From a virus (taxonomy: Duplodnaviria; Heunggongvirae; Uroviricota; Caudoviricetes): 6,937 bases of DNA. Both the position numbers and the translations under genes were made by a program. The DNA lies in IMG/VR virus record IMGVR_UViG_2617270978_000007. One strand, 5' to 3'. Below the pieces are notes generated by a model. It worked only from the letters and a program-made list of their open reading frames with translations, did no database searches and was not told the DNA's origin. Positions within the stretch are counted from its first letter, which is position 1; each line of letters starts with the position of its first letter. Positions 1,053 to 5,816 of this stretch are shown piece after piece.

Positions 1053-1273
1053 GCCACACCTCCCAGACGCTTAAACATTTTTCCGGAGCAAAAGGCTATA
1101 AGCGGCATACTGATGCGGTAATTACGGCCCAGCGGTTCACAAATCACCTTCTGACATTCACGGTCAACCAGGCTGACACGTAGAACATGCCCTGCAGGCG
1201 TGGTGTACCACTGACCAGGACGAGGACAACGGAAAGTCTGATTGGTAAACCGTTTGAAAATATTCCGGATCAT
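1049..1273 (-). CDS. Hypothetical small protein (74 aa), Cys-containing
   Basis: ORF-track ORF; ATG at 1273..1271 overlaps the Rha ORF stop (ATGA). A purine-rich SD-like stretch lies upstream. Function unknown. Confidence 0.5.
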   Translation of the reverse strand: MIRNIFKRFTNQTFRCPRPGQWYTTPAGHVLRVSLVDRECQKVICEPLGRNYRISMPLIAFCSGKMFKRLGGVA

Positions 1274-2418
1274 TTGCGCCCCCTTACCTCTGAAGGGTTC
1301 AGCGACAAATTTATGAGACTGGCCAGTAGCGCCGCGTCGTTGATGCGGTCATACAGACTTACAGCCAGCGGGGATTCGGCTTTTGCCAACATGGGATAAA
1401 GCTGCTGCAGCCAGACCTGATGAATTGATGAAATGTAGGAATAGAGAACGCTGGCGTTATGTGCAACGTCGCTCAGTACAGAGGGATTTGAAAGCTGTTT
1501 CTCCATCTGGTTAAAGGCATTGATGTATGCCTCTTTGAACTGGGCAGCACGTTTACCCGTGAAACCCATAGCAAGAAACGCAAAGCCGTCGCGGGTTATT
1601 TGATAGCAAGGTAGTTTGCGGCCTGTGCAATCGGTGTAATCACTCACCGAAAAATTGCGGGAAGTGAATGATGCAGAGCATTCAAGCGTGCGGATCTTTT
1701 TCAGTACATCGTCATGACGTTTGGAGAAGAAGTTGGCAACAGCCAGGGATGAAGTAACAGCCTGACCATCAACGATGGCAATTTCAGGTTGAGTGAGGGT
1801 TGGGATCGTAGCCATGATGGCAGCCTCCGTTGACTGTGGAAAACTTCCACCACCGGAGCTGCGAAACTCACTGGTGGCAGACTGAACAGGGTTCGCAGTA
1901 CCGGCGTCAACGGAGACCGGCGAGCCTTTCGGCTCCCCTGCCCAGCCCACCATAATTCTGGCGTGCGTGAGCGCGGACGATAAAAAAGACGCTGGCGCGT
2001 CATATATCGCCGTTGACAATTCCGGGCTGCGACCCCCGGCACCCGCTTTATAAGGTGCCTGAGCAGTGTAACGTCCCGGAATTGCAGAATCAATATGCTG
2101 GTGGTCCTTCACACTCAACAAAATCACGCCTGAATTTCCACAAAGGACTAAAGCACTCATGCGGGTAGTCTTTGCGAAGATAGATAACGCGCTGTGTTTC
2201 TGGCTCCCAACGAATAACATGGACATAAAGCCCTCTTCCGTCACGAAACCAGCGGTTAAGTTCCTGCACAACTCGCCCCCCACAGTCAGGTAAAGTTCTC
2301 TGTGGTTACTTACAGCCAGGTGATTTGGTAATCTGCATTCATGCCGTAACAACAGGTGTTCAGCGACGCTGACCACCAGCTGTTGCGACAAACGGTTATT
2401 TGCCGTTAAACTATTCAT
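1270..2418 (-). CDS. Rha-family phage regulatory protein (382-aa ORF; the Rha domain is the C-terminal 181 aa, with an alternative internal start at 1815)
   Basis: The C-terminal half (MATIPTLTQPEIAIVDGQAVTSSLAVANFFSKRHDDVLKKIRTLE...) carries the F-x-KRH-D-x-VL-x-x-IR signature of Phage_pRha proteins. An internal ATG at 1815..1813 is preceded by GGAGG at 1824..1828. The full ORF starts at an ATG at 2418..2416 that overlaps the upstream stop (ATGA), and its N-terminal ~200 aa are low-complexity (Ala/Gly/Ser-rich) with no recognised domain. Boundaries are uncertain between 1270..1815 and 1270..2418. Confidence 0.55.
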   Translation of the reverse strand: MNSLTANNRLSQQLVVSVAEHLLLRHECRLPNHLAVSNHRELYLTVGGELCRNLTAGFVTEEGFMSMLFVGSQKHSALSIFAKTTRMSALVLCGNSGVILLSVKDHQHIDSAIPGRYTAQAPYKAGAGGRSPELSTAIYDAPASFLSSALTHARIMVGWAGEPKGSPVSVDAGTANPVQSATSEFRSSGGGSFPQSTEAAIMATIPTLTQPEIAIVDGQAVTSSLAVANFFSKRHDDVLKKIRTLECSASFTSRNFSVSDYTDCTGRKLPCYQITRDGFAFLAMGFTGKRAAQFKEAYINAFNQMEKQLSNPSVLSDVAHNASVLYSYISSIHQVWLQQLYPMLAKAESPLAVSLYDRINDAALLASLINLSLNPSEVRGRK

Positions 2419-2972
2419 GCGTTAGTTTCTCCACAACCAGAAGCAATCGACGCCACGACGCCCGGAGCTGCACACTCGCGGGCGTTACTATTTTCTGGAG
2501 CGCAGAAGATTTTGTAGACCAGTGCTGCATGCTCCTGGAGCTTCGAAATTGAGAGGTACAGCTCGTCGTTAATTGCTGTCTTCTCATGCGGTTCCACTAC
2601 ACCGTCTTCGATTGCTGAACGAATCTGTCTGGAATAACTGCCGATCTGTTCAATGACTTCCAGCAGACGCTGGTTAATATCGGCGTTGTCCACATCCTCG
2701 ACGTCAGGAAGAGACACAAAGACGCCATTTGCAGACTGCGCCACAGCGTCAGCAATGAAGTGAGTTCCACCAGCACGTTGTAAAATCATTGCCCATCCCA
2801 GCGGGAAAATCTGATCGCCATCGGCACGAAGGCGATTGAATAAAGCGTTCTCTGTTACATCCAGCCAGTCAGCGGCTTCAGCGTAACCCCCCGGCAACGC
2901 CGCGATAGTTTTTCTGACAGCTTTCACGTACCACTCAGGCTGTTTTTCTATTTTCCAGTGATGCTTACCCAC
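2415..2972 (-). CDS. CII-like / YdaT-family early regulatory protein (putative)
   Basis: ORF in the position of cII, immediately downstream of cro. Preferred start is GTG at 2972..2970 with AAGGAG SD 6 nt upstream; the ORF-track ATG at 3077 would overlap cro and has no SD. Family assignment is from recalled resemblance and gene order only. Confidence 0.6.
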   Translation of the reverse strand: MGKHHWKIEKQPEWYVKAVRKTIAALPGGYAEAADWLDVTENALFNRLRADGDQIFPLGWAMILQRAGGTHFIADAVAQSANGVFVSLPDVEDVDNADINQRLLEVIEQIGSYSRQIRSAIEDGVVEPHEKTAINDELYLSISKLQEHAALVYKIFCAPENSNARECAAPGVVASIASGCGETNA

Positions 2973-2994: not shown

Positions 2995-3243
2995 TTACTT
3001 TTCATCTGATGAATCTTTAATCTTTTGAAAAATATCTGGACGTAATTTTTCTTTTGATATGCCAGTGGTCTTTTCAATGAATATCGAAAGCTTTGCAGGG
3101 GGACGCTTTTCTCTGTTCAACCAGTTCCAGACATGTTGTTGCTTTACTAAATGACCGCTGCTGGCTGTGAGCTTCCGAGCCAATTCTGATTGACCACCAG
3201 CCAGAGCGATTGCCTCCGATAAGGCTAATTGCTCAGGTGTCAT
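2995..3243 (-). CDS. Cro-like HTH transcriptional regulator (YdaS-like)
   Basis: 82-aa ORF divergent from the repressor. ATG at 3243..3241 with AAGGAG SD 6 nt upstream. N-terminal HTH-like segment (LSEAIALAGGQSELARKLTASSGHL). Size and position match Cro. Confidence 0.75.
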   Translation of the reverse strand: MTPEQLALSEAIALAGGQSELARKLTASSGHLVKQQHVWNWLNREKRPPAKLSIFIEKTTGISKEKLRPDIFQKIKDSSDEK

Positions 3244-3378
3244 AGCTTTCTCCTTTTTTGGTAGTTAAGTTGTTACGAGCTGCAAGAATACAACATTAAC
3301 AACTTTTACCACAACTTTTAGATGTTGGAAAGCTAAAACATAAAGTTGTAACCTCATCAAAAAAGAGAGGGATATGTT
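3244..3378. promoter_or_regulatory. OR-like divergent operator/promoter region between the cro-like and cI-like genes
   Basis: 135-bp AT-rich intergenic region between divergent repressor and cro starts. It contains repeated ACAACT/AGTTGT motifs in both orientations: AAGTTGTTA 3267..3275 with its reverse complement TAACAACTT 3297..3305, and ACAACTTTTA at 3299..3308 and 3311..3320 as a direct repeat. It shares the 12-mer ACATAAAGTTGT and 9-mer ACCACAACT with the region at 4991..5025. Exact -35/-10 elements were not resolved. Confidence 0.6.
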
Positions 3379-4065
3379 GTGAAAACACTGGCAGAACGAT
3401 TAAAGATAGGTAGAGAGAAAGCTGGCATGAGCCAAGCTCAACTAGCTGAAAAAATTGGACTTTCACAACAATCTGTAGCCAAAATAGAGAATGGCGAAAC
3501 TCTACAACCGCGCAAAATTAAAGAAATTGCAAAAGTTTTAGGTGTATCACAAAAGTGGTTACAACTTGGTATTGAAGACAACGCATCCATACCTGATCTT
3601 GTTGTAAAAGAAGCAGAAAGCACCGCATTAGACCCCGATATTTTCGTAAACATTCCTGTTTTAGATGTCGAGTTATCGGCAGGTAACGGATGTCTGGCTG
3701 AAATAGTTGAATCAGCTATTGACTGGTTTCCGTTAAGAAGAGCAGATTTGAGAAAATCTGGCGTATGTGCATCTAATGCCAAGATCGTACAAATATGGGG
3801 GAACAGTTTATTACCGGTTCTCAATAATGGAGATCTTGTTGCCGTTGATATTTCTCAAACCGTTCCTATTCGTGATGGCGATCTTTATGCCGTACGAGAT
3901 GGTGTATTGCTAAGGGTTAAAATACTTATCAACTTACCTGACGGTGGCTTGATTCTTAGAAGCTTCAACAAAGATGAGTACCCAGATGAAATACTCACCT
4001 TTGAAGATAGACGAGCCAGAATTCATGTTATAGGTAGGGTATTCTGGTCATCGCGAACTTGGTAA
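3379..4065 (+). CDS. CI-like prophage repressor (XRE-type HTH N-terminal domain + LexA/S24 peptidase-like autocleavage domain)
   Basis: 228-aa ORF, GTG start at 3379 with GAGGGA SD-like sequence 7 nt upstream. N-terminal HTH (MSQAQLAEKIGLSQQSVAKIENGE). An Ala-Gly candidate cleavage site (LSAGNG), a GNSLLP segment with the candidate catalytic Ser and a downstream Lys (LLRVKIL) match the Ser/Lys dyad arrangement of LexA and lambda CI. Confidence 0.9.
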   Translation: MKTLAERLKIGREKAGMSQAQLAEKIGLSQQSVAKIENGETLQPRKIKEIAKVLGVSQKWLQLGIEDNASIPDLVVKEAESTALDPDIFVNIPVLDVELSAGNGCLAEIVESAIDWFPLRRADLRKSGVCASNAKIVQIWGNSLLPVLNNGDLVAVDISQTVPIRDGDLYAVRDGVLLRVKILINLPDGGLILRSFNKDEYPDEILTFEDRRARIHVIGRVFWSSRTW

Positions 4066-4938
4066 TGCATCGAAAAGCATTTCTTCAGAAATAATTTTAA
4101 GTTTTGCACCATTATCATCCCTATAAGATATAGCCTTTTCGATCTTCCTTCCGTGACTAGAGAATTTCCAATCACGGGAGGAAAGCGTCCCAATTACTAA
4201 AAAATCCAACTTTTGAGTAATTCCACTACTGATGTTCCCACCAGCATTTTTAATCAAATTTTCAACTACGGCTCTCTTTCCTGCAACAAAAGTGCCTGTA
4301 AGACAATAGGTTTTACCCTCTAACTCTATCGAAGCCCCTACATCAATAGGCAGCCTGGTCGCCAAACCATCCACCACCCCACTTTCCAAGTCACATCCTG
4401 TGAAGTCTACTAATGCCTTATGTAGAGTTAAACTCTCATCTTCAGTAATAACACCATCTTTAAGAATTTCCTTTACAAGTGCATAAAGTTTTTTTCCTGG
4501 GTAGTTGTTCTTCAAAGCTCCATTTTGCTCAAGCCACCAATTAAGATATCTTATTTCTTCTTGAGTTAAGTTCCGATCAGCAATTAATCCTTTACATAGT
4601 CCATTAAGTAAATGGACATCTACATCCTTGGAGTAAAAATCAATTTCAGGGATATCAAGAATTTCCCTCTGTATTTGGAGAAGGCTATTTTTAAGGTCAT
4701 CACGTTCTTCTGATGTGATTATTCCATCCGCAAGAATATCCGACACCCGAGCAGATAGACTTTTTATAACTCCATTATTGATAATCTGCTTTGCTTCAAG
4801 TAACCATGTATCTAAGTAAAGAACCTCCTCTTCACGGACAACTCCATCTGCAATGATTCCATCAATGATGCTAATCAAGTTAGCAAATAACTTGTCCCGG
4901 TTCTGTGTGTAATTAAAAGCGTAAAGCGCGTCTTCCAT
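4048..4938 (-). CDS. TerB-like repeat protein with C-terminal BRCT domain (296 aa); accessory (moron) gene
   Basis: ATG at 4938..4936 with GGAGG at 4943..4947 (MEDALYAFNYTQNRD...); the ORF-track start at 4968 lacks an SD. Four ~35-aa repeats carry the motif (I/L)ADG-x-(I/V)-x-x-EE (IADGVVREEE, LADGIITSEE, IADRNLTQEE, LKDGVITEDE), resembling TerB-type domains. The C-terminal ~85 aa (GKTYCLTGTFVAGKRAVVENLIKNAGGNISSGITQKLDFLVIGTLSS...AKLKIISEEMLFDAL) match the BRCT pattern of NAD-ligase C-termini. The stop at 4048..4050 overlaps the repressor 3' end by 18 bp. Confidence 0.8.
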   Translation of the reverse strand: MEDALYAFNYTQNRDKLFANLISIIDGIIADGVVREEEVLYLDTWLLEAKQIINNGVIKSLSARVSDILADGIITSEERDDLKNSLLQIQREILDIPEIDFYSKDVDVHLLNGLCKGLIADRNLTQEEIRYLNWWLEQNGALKNNYPGKKLYALVKEILKDGVITEDESLTLHKALVDFTGCDLESGVVDGLATRLPIDVGASIELEGKTYCLTGTFVAGKRAVVENLIKNAGGNISSGITQKLDFLVIGTLSSRDWKFSSHGRKIEKAISYRDDNGAKLKIISEEMLFDALPSSR

Positions 4939-4990
4939 ACAACCTCCTTTTTTTGATAATCCTTGCACTCCTTGGCTACTCGTTCAAACC

Positions 4991-5037
4991 ACATAAAGTT
5001 GTTGGCAACATTCAAAACCACAACTAAATTACAACTT
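4991..5037 (+). promoter_or_regulatory. OL-like operator region with predicted rightward early promoter (-35 TTGGCA 5002..5007, 17-bp spacer, -10 TAAATT 5025..5030)
   Basis: Shares ACATAAAGTTGT (4991..5002, identical to 3338..3349) and ACCACAACT (5017..5025, identical to 3308..3316) with the OR region, plus ACAACTT at 5031..5037. A perfect palindrome TGTTG-G-CAACA at 5000..5010 overlaps the candidate -35. The promoter is by eye only. Confidence 0.45.
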
Positions 5038-5121
5038 AAAGGTGTTAAGACAACGAACAGGCAGGACACCCACGAAGTAGCCGCCTGGGGCATATGAAGT
5101 CCAGGATGATTCGTTAGCAAC

Positions 5122-5145
5122 AAAAAAGCGCCCTACAGGACGCTT
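5122..5145 (-). terminator. Rho-independent terminator on the - strand (8-bp stem with one G.U pair, 4-nt loop, U-rich tail)
   Basis: The - strand RNA reads AAGCGUCC-UGUA-GGGCGCUU followed by UUUUGUU (from the + strand A-run 5122..5127). On the + strand the same stem has a C/A mismatch and no U-tract, so termination looks - strand specific. It lies about 240 nt downstream of the 144-aa gene stop and upstream of the OL region. Confidence 0.5.
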
Positions 5146-5146
5146 A

Positions 5147-5159
5147 GCTCTTTAACAAT
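5147..5159 (+). promoter_or_regulatory. boxA-like element (GCTCTTTAACAAT), candidate antitermination (nut-like) site about 120 nt downstream of the predicted early-left promoter
   Basis: GCTCTTTAACAAT at 5147..5159 matches the rrn-type boxA as recalled (GCTCTTTAACAA) and the lambda nut boxA core (CGCTCTT-A). It follows the 5126..5145 hairpin, giving a hairpin-then-boxA order like rrn leaders. Confidence 0.4.
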
Positions 5160-5381
5160 CTGGTCCCCATCAACAAGTAACTGATAACTTGAGGAGGTGT
5201 GAAATGCACAAAACAGAACCCAAAATCGTCGCGCCTAGCTACACAGATGAGTAAATTTATGAGTGGATGACAAAGAAGCTGGCAGCTATAAACCAGCTTC
5301 GTGAAGTGCTGTCTTATCGACAGGAAACAATAGACTCCTTAAAAAAACTGGATCAGGAAATCACGGTTTTATCACAGGATG

Positions 5382-5816
5382 TTACTTTAGATATTGTGCA
5401 GACAAATTAGGATCCCATTCATTTTCGTCAAAATCATCAAAGTGATGAATTTGTGATCTCCAGTCTCGATAATCTAAAAATTTCTGGGCGGTTACGCTTA
5501 TTTTATCAAGTGTGAGTTCATCCTGAATTGAAAGAAGAAGTTCATCAAATTTCATCTCATTAATCTGTTTTGGCATCCAGTGATGCTTCATCAGAATAAG
5601 GTGAACCAGAGCCTTTTTCCCATTCAACTGATTATAGGGAGTGCCGAATTTCTTCCGGTGCTCATGTAAGACAAGATCCAGAAGAGTAAGTAATGTTGCC
5701 CTTGATTCCACTTTGCTTATTTCGACTGATGACACTATCCCACTGATTTCAATGCCCCGATACTTTCCAACATTTTCACAGTGGGATTTGTACAACGTGT
5801 AGATATTACCGGACAT
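5382..5816 (-). CDS. Hypothetical protein (144 aa), orphan accessory gene antisense to the early-left direction
   Basis: ORF-track ORF; ATG at 5816..5814 preceded by AAGGAAA SD-like sequence. Acidic C-terminus (HHFDDFDENEWDPN), no obvious TM segment, no recognised domain. Flanked by direct repeats upstream (5832..5883) and a - strand terminator downstream (5122..5145). Confidence 0.62.
   Translation of the reverse strand: MSGNIYTLYKSHCENVGKYRGIEISGIVSSVEISKVESRATLLTLLDLVLHEHRKKFGTPYNQLNGKKALVHLILMKHHWMPKQINEMKFDELLLSIQDELTLDKISVTAQKFLDYRDWRSQIHHFDDFDENEWDPNLSAQYLK

What the first reader, a model, noticed from the sequence alone, without database searches (positions are those of the whole stretch)
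4048..4938. TerB-repeat + BRCT fusion protein in the prophage immunity-region hotspot: candidate undescribed exclusion/defence gene
Seen in sequence: a 296-aa ORF with a strong SD, four tandem ~35-aa repeats each carrying an (I/L)ADG-x-(I/V)-x-x-EE motif, and a C-terminal BRCT-like domain (GKTYCLTGT...DFLVIG...IISEEML). Established knowledge: TerB-type domains occur in stress-response and anti-phage systems (for example Shango), BRCT domains bind DNA ends or phospho-/nucleotide ligands, and the segment next to the repressor in lambdoid prophages carries lysogen-expressed exclusion systems such as rexAB. Inference: this may be a lysogen-expressed defence or superinfection-exclusion factor, or a DNA-damage/induction sensor. 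I do not recall this TerB + BRCT architecture as a described defence system.
Basis: partly seen in the sequence, partly recalled or inferred. Interest (0 to 1): 0.8.

Follow-up and report, generated by a model that had tools for sequence, protein, structure and literature searches.

The report
Repressor-linked BRCT gene in prophage immunity region
A 296-residue protein of unknown function, made of a duplicated acidic helical domain plus a DNA-end-binding-type BRCT domain, is a fixed component of one family of lambdoid prophage immunity regions and appears to have a repressor-dependent promoter, which makes it a good but untested candidate for a lysogen-expressed factor acting on incoming DNA.

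Summary
A 296-aa ORF lies on the minus strand (4048-4938) with a strong SD, four motif-bearing repeats and a C-terminal BRCT domain (Pfam 29 bits against a cut-off of 21.3; fold closest to RFC1 and LigA BRCTs).

The gene lies inside the immunity region, between OL/PL and a cleavable cI, and is convergent with cI. In 92 of 102 two-unit loci the same arrangement recurs with co-diverging cI. In P2/K139-like prophages the homolog (K139 orf2) sits in the repressor-to-integrase lysogenic operon.

A conserved promoter lies upstream: an operator abutting a TTGAnn -35, an invariant 17-nt spacer and AAGGAT. It aligns in register with the phage's PRM, implying lysogenic, repressor-dependent expression.

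Exonuclease-bearing relatives are PADLOC candidate PDC-S48. This protein has only the repeat plus BRCT module.

A defence or exclusion role is plausible but untested. A role as a lysis-lysogeny regulator is the main rival.

The parts
4048..4938 (-). CDS of the 296-aa protein (duplicated helical module plus BRCT); the stop codon lies inside the 3' end of cI
   Evidence: PHROG 3989 full-length match at 429 bits
4651..4911 (-). Helical unit 1 (aa 10-96): two helix-loop-helix hairpins with conserved D31..E38 (E38 invariant, D31 near-invariant) and near-invariant D71..E78
4387..4641 (-). Helical unit 2 (aa 100-184): a duplicate of unit 1, with D121..E128 and D161..E168 (E128 invariant; the other three invariant or near-invariant)
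   Evidence: hhalign of unit 1 against unit 2: probability 99.7%, E 1.7e-26; N-terminal AF2 model pLDDT 87, pTM 0.83
4324..4386 (-). Conserved glycine-rich acidic linker (aa 185-205; G187, G191, T194, LP)
   Evidence: low pLDDT in the models
4069..4323 (-). BRCT domain (aa 206-290), basic (pI 9.4), with conserved T214-G215, R222 and K265
4943..4949 (-). Shine-Dalgarno AAGGAGG
   Evidence: conserved in alignment A6
4959..4987 (-). Candidate promoter of the BRCT gene: -35 TTGAAC (4987-4982), 17-nt spacer, TG-n-AAGGAT -10 (4964-4959); inferred start near 4952
   Evidence: The same layout, with an invariant 17-nt spacer, occurs in 52 distinct upstream sequences; it aligns in register with PRM. Function is inferred, not shown.
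4988..5002 (-). Operator OL3 (ACAACTTTATGTGGT), lying between the two divergent -35 hexamers, about 43 bp upstream of the inferred BRCT-gene start
5002..5045 (+). PL (-35 TTGGCA 5002-5007, TTGACA in relatives; -10 TAAATT 5025-5030) with operators at 5020-5028 and 5031-5045; it points away from the BRCT gene
3379..4065 (+). cI-like repressor (HTH_3 plus Peptidase_S24, 228 aa), convergent with the BRCT gene with an 18-bp 3' overlap; co-inherited with it
3244..3378 (.). OR region with four copies of the ACAACTTW operator core (3266-3273, 3299-3306, 3311-3318, 3342-3349), containing PRM and PR
2995..3243 (-). cro-like regulator (YdaS_toxin family in relatives), the third co-diverging gene of the immunity module

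Best explanation
SHOWN. The gene encodes a soluble, non-enzymatic two-part protein. The N-terminus is a strongly acidic, compact eight-helix domain made of a duplicated ~85-aa unit, with four conserved Asp..Glu loop pairs. The C-terminus is a basic BRCT domain of the RFC1/LigA class whose phosphate-pocket positions (T-G, R, K) are conserved across the family. The gene is a fixed component of one family of lambdoid immunity regions, in the order OL/PL - gene - cI - OR - cro. Its own conserved promoter is back-to-back with PL and shares the operator OL3.

INFERRED.
(1) The promoter is built like the phage's PRM: an operator centred about 43 bp upstream, a weak -10 and the same leader. Repressor bound at OL would therefore shut PL while permitting or activating this gene, so the protein is made in the lysogen.
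(2) The BRCT domain binds 5'-phosphorylated DNA ends, nicks or recessed junctions.
(3) In the lysogen the protein acts on incoming or replicating foreign DNA, for example the cohesive ends or nicks of a superinfecting phage, and blocks its sealing, circularisation or replication. That would make it a superinfection-exclusion or defence factor. The acidic helical domain would serve as the regulatory, ligand- or metal-binding, or partner-binding part.

Steps 1-3 are inference. Step 3 is the weakest.
For: - Architecture.
- Pocket conservation: T214, G215, R222 and K265 are invariant or nearly so in a 42-sequence alignment reaching down to 29% identity. The closest solved sequences are RFC1 p140 BRCT, including its DNA complex 2k7f.
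- Immunity-region membership: 92 of 102 two-unit loci have the homologous S24 cI convergent and overlapping, with BRCT and cI identities co-varying from 57 to 100%. In E. coli the gene occurs in 47 and the cI allele in 48 of 5426 genomes. Flanking replication and PL-side genes differ between hosts.
- Operators: ACAACTTW occurs 6 times against 0.72 expected, only in OR and upstream of this gene.
- Promoter: 52 distinct upstream sequences keep operator-TTGAnn-17 nt-AAGGAT/AAAGAT with a variable spacer sequence, in register with PRM in three genera.
- Independent lysogeny link: in K139/Kappa and other P2-like prophages, which have unrelated repressors, the homolog lies between repressor and integrase. 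In K139 it is in the annotated lysogenic operon next to the exclusion gene glo.
- Defence link: 44 of 67 relatives hit PADLOC candidate PDC-S48, whose full form is DEDDh exonuclease plus repeat plus BRCT. PDCs are defined by recurrent embedding in known defence loci (PMC12881386).
- The cI-N segment is a known site of lysogen-expressed defence genes (rexAB, bstA; PMC8585504).
Against: - No phenotype or expression data exist, and no paper on K139 orf2, PHROG 3989 or PDC-S48 function was found.
- The protein has no effector domain. It matches PDC-S48 only weakly (28 bits) and only over the repeat plus BRCT part.
- One-unit relatives in many phyla sit among ordinary chromosomal genes. The pooled neighbour scan showed no visible enrichment of defence genes, so the family is not exclusively phage- or defence-associated.
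- Tight linkage to cI follows partly from simply lying between OL and OR.
- Whether the repressor activates or represses the promoter is inferred from geometry only.
- Convergent, overlapping transcription with cI and the absence of a good terminator could limit expression.
Confidence: 0.4

Rival explanations
1. Lysis-lysogeny modulator. The protein senses DNA damage (gaps or nicks with 5' phosphates) through its BRCT domain. It tunes prophage induction or lysogen stability, for example by competing with RecFOR/RecA loading at gap junctions, by acting on the cleavable repressor, or through antisense and transcriptional interference with cI from the convergent overlap.
For: - It is strictly co-inherited with a cleavable HTH plus S24 repressor and with cro and the operators.
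- It shares an operator with PL and has PRM-like regulation.
- The 3' overlap with cI is conserved: 18 bp here, 9 bp in Citrobacter and Serratia.
- In P2-like prophages it lies between repressor and integrase.
- A 2026 preprint notes that prophage regulatory modules in Roseobacter encode cI repressors and BRCT-domain proteins, and calls them damage-responsive regulators, without testing this.
Against: - An S24 repressor already senses RecA* directly, so an extra sensor is not needed.
- The protein has no DNA-sequence-specific or repressor-like domain.
- The same family occurs next to unrelated repressor types and, in the short form, outside prophages.
- Exonuclease-fused relatives look like effectors rather than regulators.
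Confidence: 0.25
2. DNA-end protector or anti-defence decoy. This would be an effector-less copy of the targeting module of PDC-S48-type exonucleases. It would occupy 5'-phosphate ends or nicks of phage or prophage DNA and shield them from host or rival exonucleases, by analogy with end-binding phage proteins.
For: The protein matches only the repeat plus BRCT part of PDC-S48 and lacks the DEDDh domain. It has a basic BRCT with a conserved pocket and is phage-borne.
Against: A gene with a PRM-like promoter inside the immunity region would be made in the lysogen, not early in the phage's own infection when its ends are exposed. In K139 it is in the lysogenic operon. No partner exonuclease is encoded nearby.
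Confidence: 0.1
3. Host-type DNA-metabolism accessory with no role in phage conflict. It would be a nick- or gap-binding factor, as the chromosomal short forms may be, carried along by the immunity region as a neutral or mildly beneficial passenger.
For: One-unit homologs are widespread as stand-alone chromosomal genes with heterogeneous, often housekeeping neighbours. The BRCT is nearest to those of LigA and RFC1.
Against: The two-unit form is almost exclusively in prophage lysogeny modules (99 of 102 loci). It stays intact and co-diverges with cI down to 57% identity, with a conserved dedicated promoter. That argues for selection in the phage context.
Confidence: 0.15
4. A genuine TerB-family stress protein, sensing tellurite, metal or membrane stress as in the ter operon or Shango SngA.
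Confidence: 0.05

Closest known systems
Vibrio cholerae phage K139/Kappa Orf2 (NP_536630; PHROG 3989)
   Same: Same full-length architecture: two helical units plus BRCT, 33% identity over 95% of the protein. It is also encoded immediately 3' of the prophage repressor.
   Different: In K139 the gene is on the same strand as an unrelated repressor, inside the cI-orf2-glo-int operon. Here it is convergent with an S24 repressor and has its own promoter. No function is known for either.
PADLOC candidate PDC-S48 (DEDDh exonuclease plus repeat unit plus BRCT)
   Same: It shares the helical repeat unit plus BRCT module. 44 of 67 relatives of the N-terminal module hit the model.
   Different: The window protein lacks the exonuclease and matches only profile positions 239-377 of 411, at 28 bits. 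PDC-S48 is a computational candidate that I could not find tested. This gene sits in a prophage immunity region, not embedded in a defence locus.
Lambda rexAB and Salmonella BTP1 bstA (lysogen-expressed defence genes between cI and N)
   Same: Same genomic niche, between the repressor gene and OL/PL, inside or next to the immunity region. Expression in the lysogen is expected.
   Different: There is no sequence relationship. rexAB and bstA are transcribed with cI from PRM, whereas this gene is on the opposite strand with a separate PRM-like promoter. Its domain content is different.
BRCT domains of RFC1 p140 and NAD-dependent DNA ligase LigA
   Same: These are the best sequence and fold matches. 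The conserved T-G, R and K are at the phosphate-pocket positions, and the surface is basic.
   Different: This BRCT is attached to no clamp-loader or ligase catalytic module. It carries family-specific insertions (SRDW..S.GRKIEKA). Binding to DNA ends is not shown.
TerB (PF05099; PDB 2JXU) and TerB-containing systems such as Shango
   Same: Helix-loop-helix hairpins with a DG-x-h-x3-E loop motif and an acidic character.
   Different: No significant profile or fold relationship was found, and there are no ter or Shango partner genes.

Membership tests
BRCT (Pfam PF00533) | Profile score above the curated cut-off | tested here: met
   29 bits against 21.3, over aa 206-290; 35 of 67 relatives also hit
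BRCT (Pfam PF00533) | Alpha/beta BRCT fold | tested here: met
   AF2 model with strands 210-214, 235-237, 246-249 and 281-284 plus helices; Foldseek top hits are LigA, RFC1 and XRCC1 BRCTs at probability 1.0
BRCT, RFC1/LigA DNA-end-binding class | Conserved phosphate-pocket residues (T-G, R, K) | tested here: met
   G215, R222 and K265 invariant and T214 at 90% or more in 42 sequences. The alignment to RFC1 ITG..ER covers T-G and R. The equivalence of K265 and the pocket role of these residues rest on my knowledge of RFC1.
BRCT, RFC1/LigA DNA-end-binding class | Binding to 5'-phosphorylated DNA ends | not testable with these tools
   Needs EMSA or a structure
TerB (Pfam PF05099) | Profile match of the protein itself | tested here: not met
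   No TerB hit at E<=1. The family profile finds no TerB in PDB sequences at E<=10.
TerB (Pfam PF05099) | Profile-profile relationship to bona fide TerB | tested here: not met
   hhalign probability 0.9-1.8% against 2JXU and a 17-sequence TerB profile. The positive control (unit 1 against unit 2) gave 99.7%. The TerB profile was shallow (77-99% identity).
TerB (Pfam PF05099) | TerB-like fold | tested here: inconclusive
TerB (Pfam PF05099) | Paired DG..E loop motifs | tested here: met
   Four motifs, aligned to the two TerB motifs by hhalign. This is motif-level resemblance only.
PADLOC PDC-S48 | DEDDh 3'-5' exonuclease domain | tested here: not met
   No RNase_T or DEDDh hit in the window protein. 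The domain is present in relatives such as P0173.
PADLOC PDC-S48 | Repeat unit plus BRCT module matching the model | tested here: met
   28 bits, E 2.4e-7, aa 119-251 to profile positions 239-377 of 411. This is partial coverage only.
PADLOC PDC-S48 | Embedding within known defence loci | tested here: not met
   The window gene lies in a prophage immunity region. The pooled neighbour scan of 111 neighbours showed no defence-gene enrichment.
cI-to-PL hotspot accessory/defence genes (rexAB, bstA type) | Located between the repressor gene and OL/PL | tested here: met
cI-to-PL hotspot accessory/defence genes (rexAB, bstA type) | Co-transcribed with cI from PRM | tested here: not met
   The gene is on the opposite strand and convergent with cI, with a separate candidate promoter
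cI-to-PL hotspot accessory/defence genes (rexAB, bstA type) | Protects the lysogen against other phages | not testable with these tools
   Needs plaque assays
Shango (TerB protein plus helicase plus ATPase) | Three-gene system with SngB/SngC partners | tested here: not met
   No such neighbours and no PADLOC Shango hit
PHROG 3989 / K139 Orf2 family | Full-length profile match | tested here: met
   429 bits, aa 2-295 to profile positions 2-295 of 296; K139 orf2 is 33% identical over 95%

The most novel reading that the evidence does not exclude
A repressor-activated, non-enzymatic exclusion factor. It would be a LigA/RFC1-like BRCT protein made only in the lysogen from a PRM-like promoter at OL. 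It would bind the 5'-phosphate cohesive ends or nicks of superinfecting cos phages and prevent their sealing and circularisation. The duplicated acidic helical domain would gate that binding. It would be the effector-less, phage-domesticated form of the PDC-S48 nuclease family, and an immunity region would then have a second positively controlled promoter.
Probability: 0.15. Interest if true: 0.8.

Novelty: new variant of a known kind. Interest (0 to 1): 0.55.

Why it matters
- The segment between cI and PL is a classic site of lysogen-expressed defence genes (rexAB, bstA). This gene is a different, widespread and completely uncharacterised occupant of that site.
- It is not a loosely attached moron. 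It has co-diverged with repressor, cro and operators across Escherichia, Citrobacter, Serratia and other genera, and it recurs in the lysogenic operon of K139/P2-like prophages.
- If the promoter reading is right, this immunity region has a second PRM-like, repressor-dependent promoter at OL. That is directly testable with reporters.
- Function could be tested with one clone and a phage panel.
- A result would also assign a first function to K139 orf2 and PHROG 3989.
- It would clarify the targeting module of the PADLOC candidate PDC-S48.

Tried and rejected
- ECs1072-family gene as a partner. Rejected: it is separated by a strong terminator, has no Pfam family, is absent next to the gene in Citrobacter and Serratia, and lies beyond PL.
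- Full PDC-S48 membership. Rejected for lack of the exonuclease.
- Viral structure library with the N-terminal model: nothing (best E 0.78).
- AFDB50 fold search: not available.
- PL leader (5037-5150) as a structured RNA: fold not better than shuffles (z -0.59), and no Rfam hit there.
- Literature on BRCT with prophage or defence, TerB with BRCT, PDC-S48, and K139 orf2: nothing functional. The two original K139 papers are not held.
- The 306-aa ORF from GTG 4968: rejected in favour of ATG 4938.
Full report
**Observation**

The window is the immunity and early region of an E. coli lambdoid prophage integrated next to mlrA. It is 99.7% identical over its full length to NZ_CP075632.

The ORF is real but lies on the minus strand, 4048-4938, with ATG at 4938 preceded by AAGGAGG. 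RefSeq calls it 'BRCT domain-containing protein' WP_000389078.1.

The four repeats are real, with motifs at aa 28, 68, 118 and 158. R1 is most similar to R3 and R2 to R4. The two halves (aa 10-96 and 100-184) match each other by hhalign at 99.7% probability, E 1.7e-26. The N-terminus is therefore a duplicated two-hairpin unit rather than four equal repeats.

**Domains**

Pfam BRCT scores 29 bits against a cut-off of 21.3. In the full-length AF2 model (pLDDT 72) the C-terminal part has a BRCT fold, with LigA, RFC1 p140 and XRCC1 BRCTs as best Foldseek matches. The closest solved sequences are RFC1 p140 BRCT, including the DNA-bound model 2k7f.

In a 42-sequence alignment reaching 29% identity, G215, R222 and K265 are invariant and T214 nearly so. 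From my knowledge of RFC1 these are the phosphate-pocket positions; the RFC1 alignment covers T-G and R only. The BRCT part is basic (pI 9.4). The N-terminal part is strongly acidic, with net charge -13 here and a family median of -16. There is no hydrophobic segment.

Modelled alone with a more diverse alignment, the N-terminal 198 residues give a confident compact eight-helix domain (pLDDT 87, pTM 0.83).

**Is it TerB?**

- The protein gives no Pfam TerB hit at E<=1.
- A family profile of the N-terminal module finds nothing significant, and no TerB, among PDB sequences.
- I verified a TerB sequence against 2JXU, built a shallow TerB profile and ran hhalign. Probabilities were 0.9-1.8%, although the DG..E motifs were placed in register.
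- Four of 67 distant relatives give marginal Pfam TerB hits.

I conclude that the module shares a loop motif with TerB, but membership is not supported.

**The wider family**

An exhaustive search with aa 1-200 found 1097 cluster representatives at E<=1e-3. Most are about 300 aa or about 200 aa. Among 67 sampled, 35 carry BRCT and 10 carry an N-terminal DEDDh exonuclease.

44 of the 67 hit PADLOC candidate PDC-S48. That model consists of exonuclease plus one repeat unit plus BRCT. An exonuclease form matches it over nearly its full length at 113 bits. The window protein, K139 Orf2 and other prophage forms match only the repeat plus BRCT part at 22-31 bits.

PDC candidates are defined by recurrent embedding in known defence loci (PMC12881386). 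I found no test of PDC-S48.

**Genomic context**

In E. coli complete genomes the gene occurs in 47 of 5426 and its cI allele in 48. In Citrobacter koseri and Serratia marcescens prophages the 76%-identical gene again converges on, and overlaps, the 3' end of a 228-aa HTH_3 plus S24 repressor, while replication and PL-side genes differ. cro, cI and this gene have diverged to similar degrees.

I classified 102 two-unit loci from the genome and IMG/VR collections:
- 92 have this lambdoid arrangement, with BRCT and cI identities co-varying from 57 to 100%.
- 7 are P2-like, in the order repressor -> gene -> integrase.
- 3 are other.

Many of the 92 are near-identical, and they reduce to about 52 distinct upstream sequences.

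In Vibrio phage K139 the homolog orf2 lies in the annotated lysogenic operon cI-orf2-glo-int.

The one-unit forms occur in many phyla. They have heterogeneous, often ordinary neighbours, with no conserved partner and no visible defence enrichment.

The neighbouring ECs1072-family gene is not a partner.

**Regulation**

The region upstream of the gene is conserved about as well as the coding sequence overall, and it contains two nearly invariant blocks. The operator core ACAACTTW occurs six times in the window against 0.72 expected: four times in OR and twice here. This region is therefore OL.

On the plus strand a TTGGCA (TTGACA in relatives)-17-TAAATT promoter points away from the gene. This is PL.

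On the gene's own strand, the operator ACAACTTTATGTGGT (5002-4988) abuts TTGAAC (4987-4982). A 17-nt spacer and TG-n-AAGGAT (4964-4959) follow. In 52 distinct upstream sequences the hexamers and the 17-nt spacing are kept while the spacer sequence varies.

This region aligns in register with the phage's own PRM in three genera: operator, -35, spacer, -10 and an A-rich leader with the SD. I infer a PRM-like promoter dependent on, or at least tolerant of, the repressor. That would mean expression in the lysogen. This is geometry, not measurement.

The gene and cI are convergent with no convincing terminator between them, so mutual interference is possible.

**Interpretation**

What is shown:
- A non-enzymatic protein combining an acidic helical domain with a basic BRCT domain.
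- Fixed membership of an immunity region, with its own conserved operator-linked promoter.
- Recurrence in lysogeny modules of two unrelated phage types.

What is inferred:
- Lysogenic expression.
- Binding of 5'-phosphate DNA ends or nicks.
- Action on incoming DNA, that is, exclusion or defence. My confidence in this is 0.4.

The main rival is a role in lysis-lysogeny control or damage sensing (0.25). Tight linkage to a cleavable repressor supports it, as does a recent untested suggestion for BRCT proteins in Roseobacter prophage regulatory modules. Smaller possibilities are a DNA-end protector or decoy, and a passenger DNA-metabolism factor.

**Novelty**

The family is catalogued (PHROG 3989, K139 orf2, RefSeq name), and its module is part of a PADLOC candidate, but no function is known. 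I rate it a new variant of a known kind: an exonuclease-less, immunity-region-resident form. Interest is moderate to good because the predictions are cheap to test.

Noticed in passing
window 1870-1957 (-) and 1982-2058 (-): Strong Rfam matches to C4 antisense RNA (RF01695, 78.8 bits against 45) and isrK (RF01394, 58.7 bits against 50) lie inside the annotated 382-aa 'Rha family' ORF (1270-2418, minus strand). The N-terminal ~180 codons of that ORF are probably not coding. The real Rha/Ant gene probably starts downstream, in a P1 immI-like c4-ant arrangement.
   Followed up: no
window 2415-2972 (-), YmfL/CII-like (Phage_CP76): The C-terminus of the CII-like protein (..IEDGVVEPHEK..) carries the same helix-loop-helix motif as the repeats. 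The NCBIfam YmfL model and CII-like PHROGs 6499 and 101 match aa 34-93 of the BRCT protein at low scores. Whether this is a shared motif or chance is unresolved.
   Followed up: partly
window 5195-5245 (+) and 5267-5410 (+): Two small unannotated ORFs lie just downstream of PL and antisense to the end of the ECs1072-family gene. One is 16 aa and is preceded by GAGGAGG; the other is 47 aa. They could be the first PL-operon genes or chance ORFs. The 47-aa ORF has no Pfam hit.
   Followed up: partly
window 5040-5110 (+): The PL leader sequence (CGAACAGGCAGGAC.CCCACGAAGTAGCCGCC..GGCATATGAAG..GGATGATTCG) is conserved in Escherichia, Citrobacter, Serratia microhaemolytica and a 'Pseudomonas lundensis' contig. 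It could be a nut-like site. Its predicted fold is not better than shuffles.
   Followed up: partly
window 5126-5145 and 5275-5300 (-); ECs1072-family gene 5382-5816 (-): The ECs1072-family gene is inverted relative to the PL operon and is followed by two terminator-like hairpins on its own strand. It has no Pfam family and is absent at this position in other genera. It looks like a separate inserted moron.
   Followed up: partly
L005 (JAWQUI010000002.1, labelled Pseudomonas lundensis): This contig carries a 77%-identical copy with the enterobacterial-type cI, operators and leader. That is unexpected for Pseudomonas and may reflect contamination or mislabelling of the assembly.
   Followed up: no
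L004 (Sulfurimonas phage SNW-1) 4929-5986: A one-unit homolog, annotated 'DNA polymerase', sits divergent from a cII-like gene, where a repressor would be expected. It is followed by a staphylococcal-nuclease-family gene, a possible two-gene version with a separate nuclease.
   Followed up: partly
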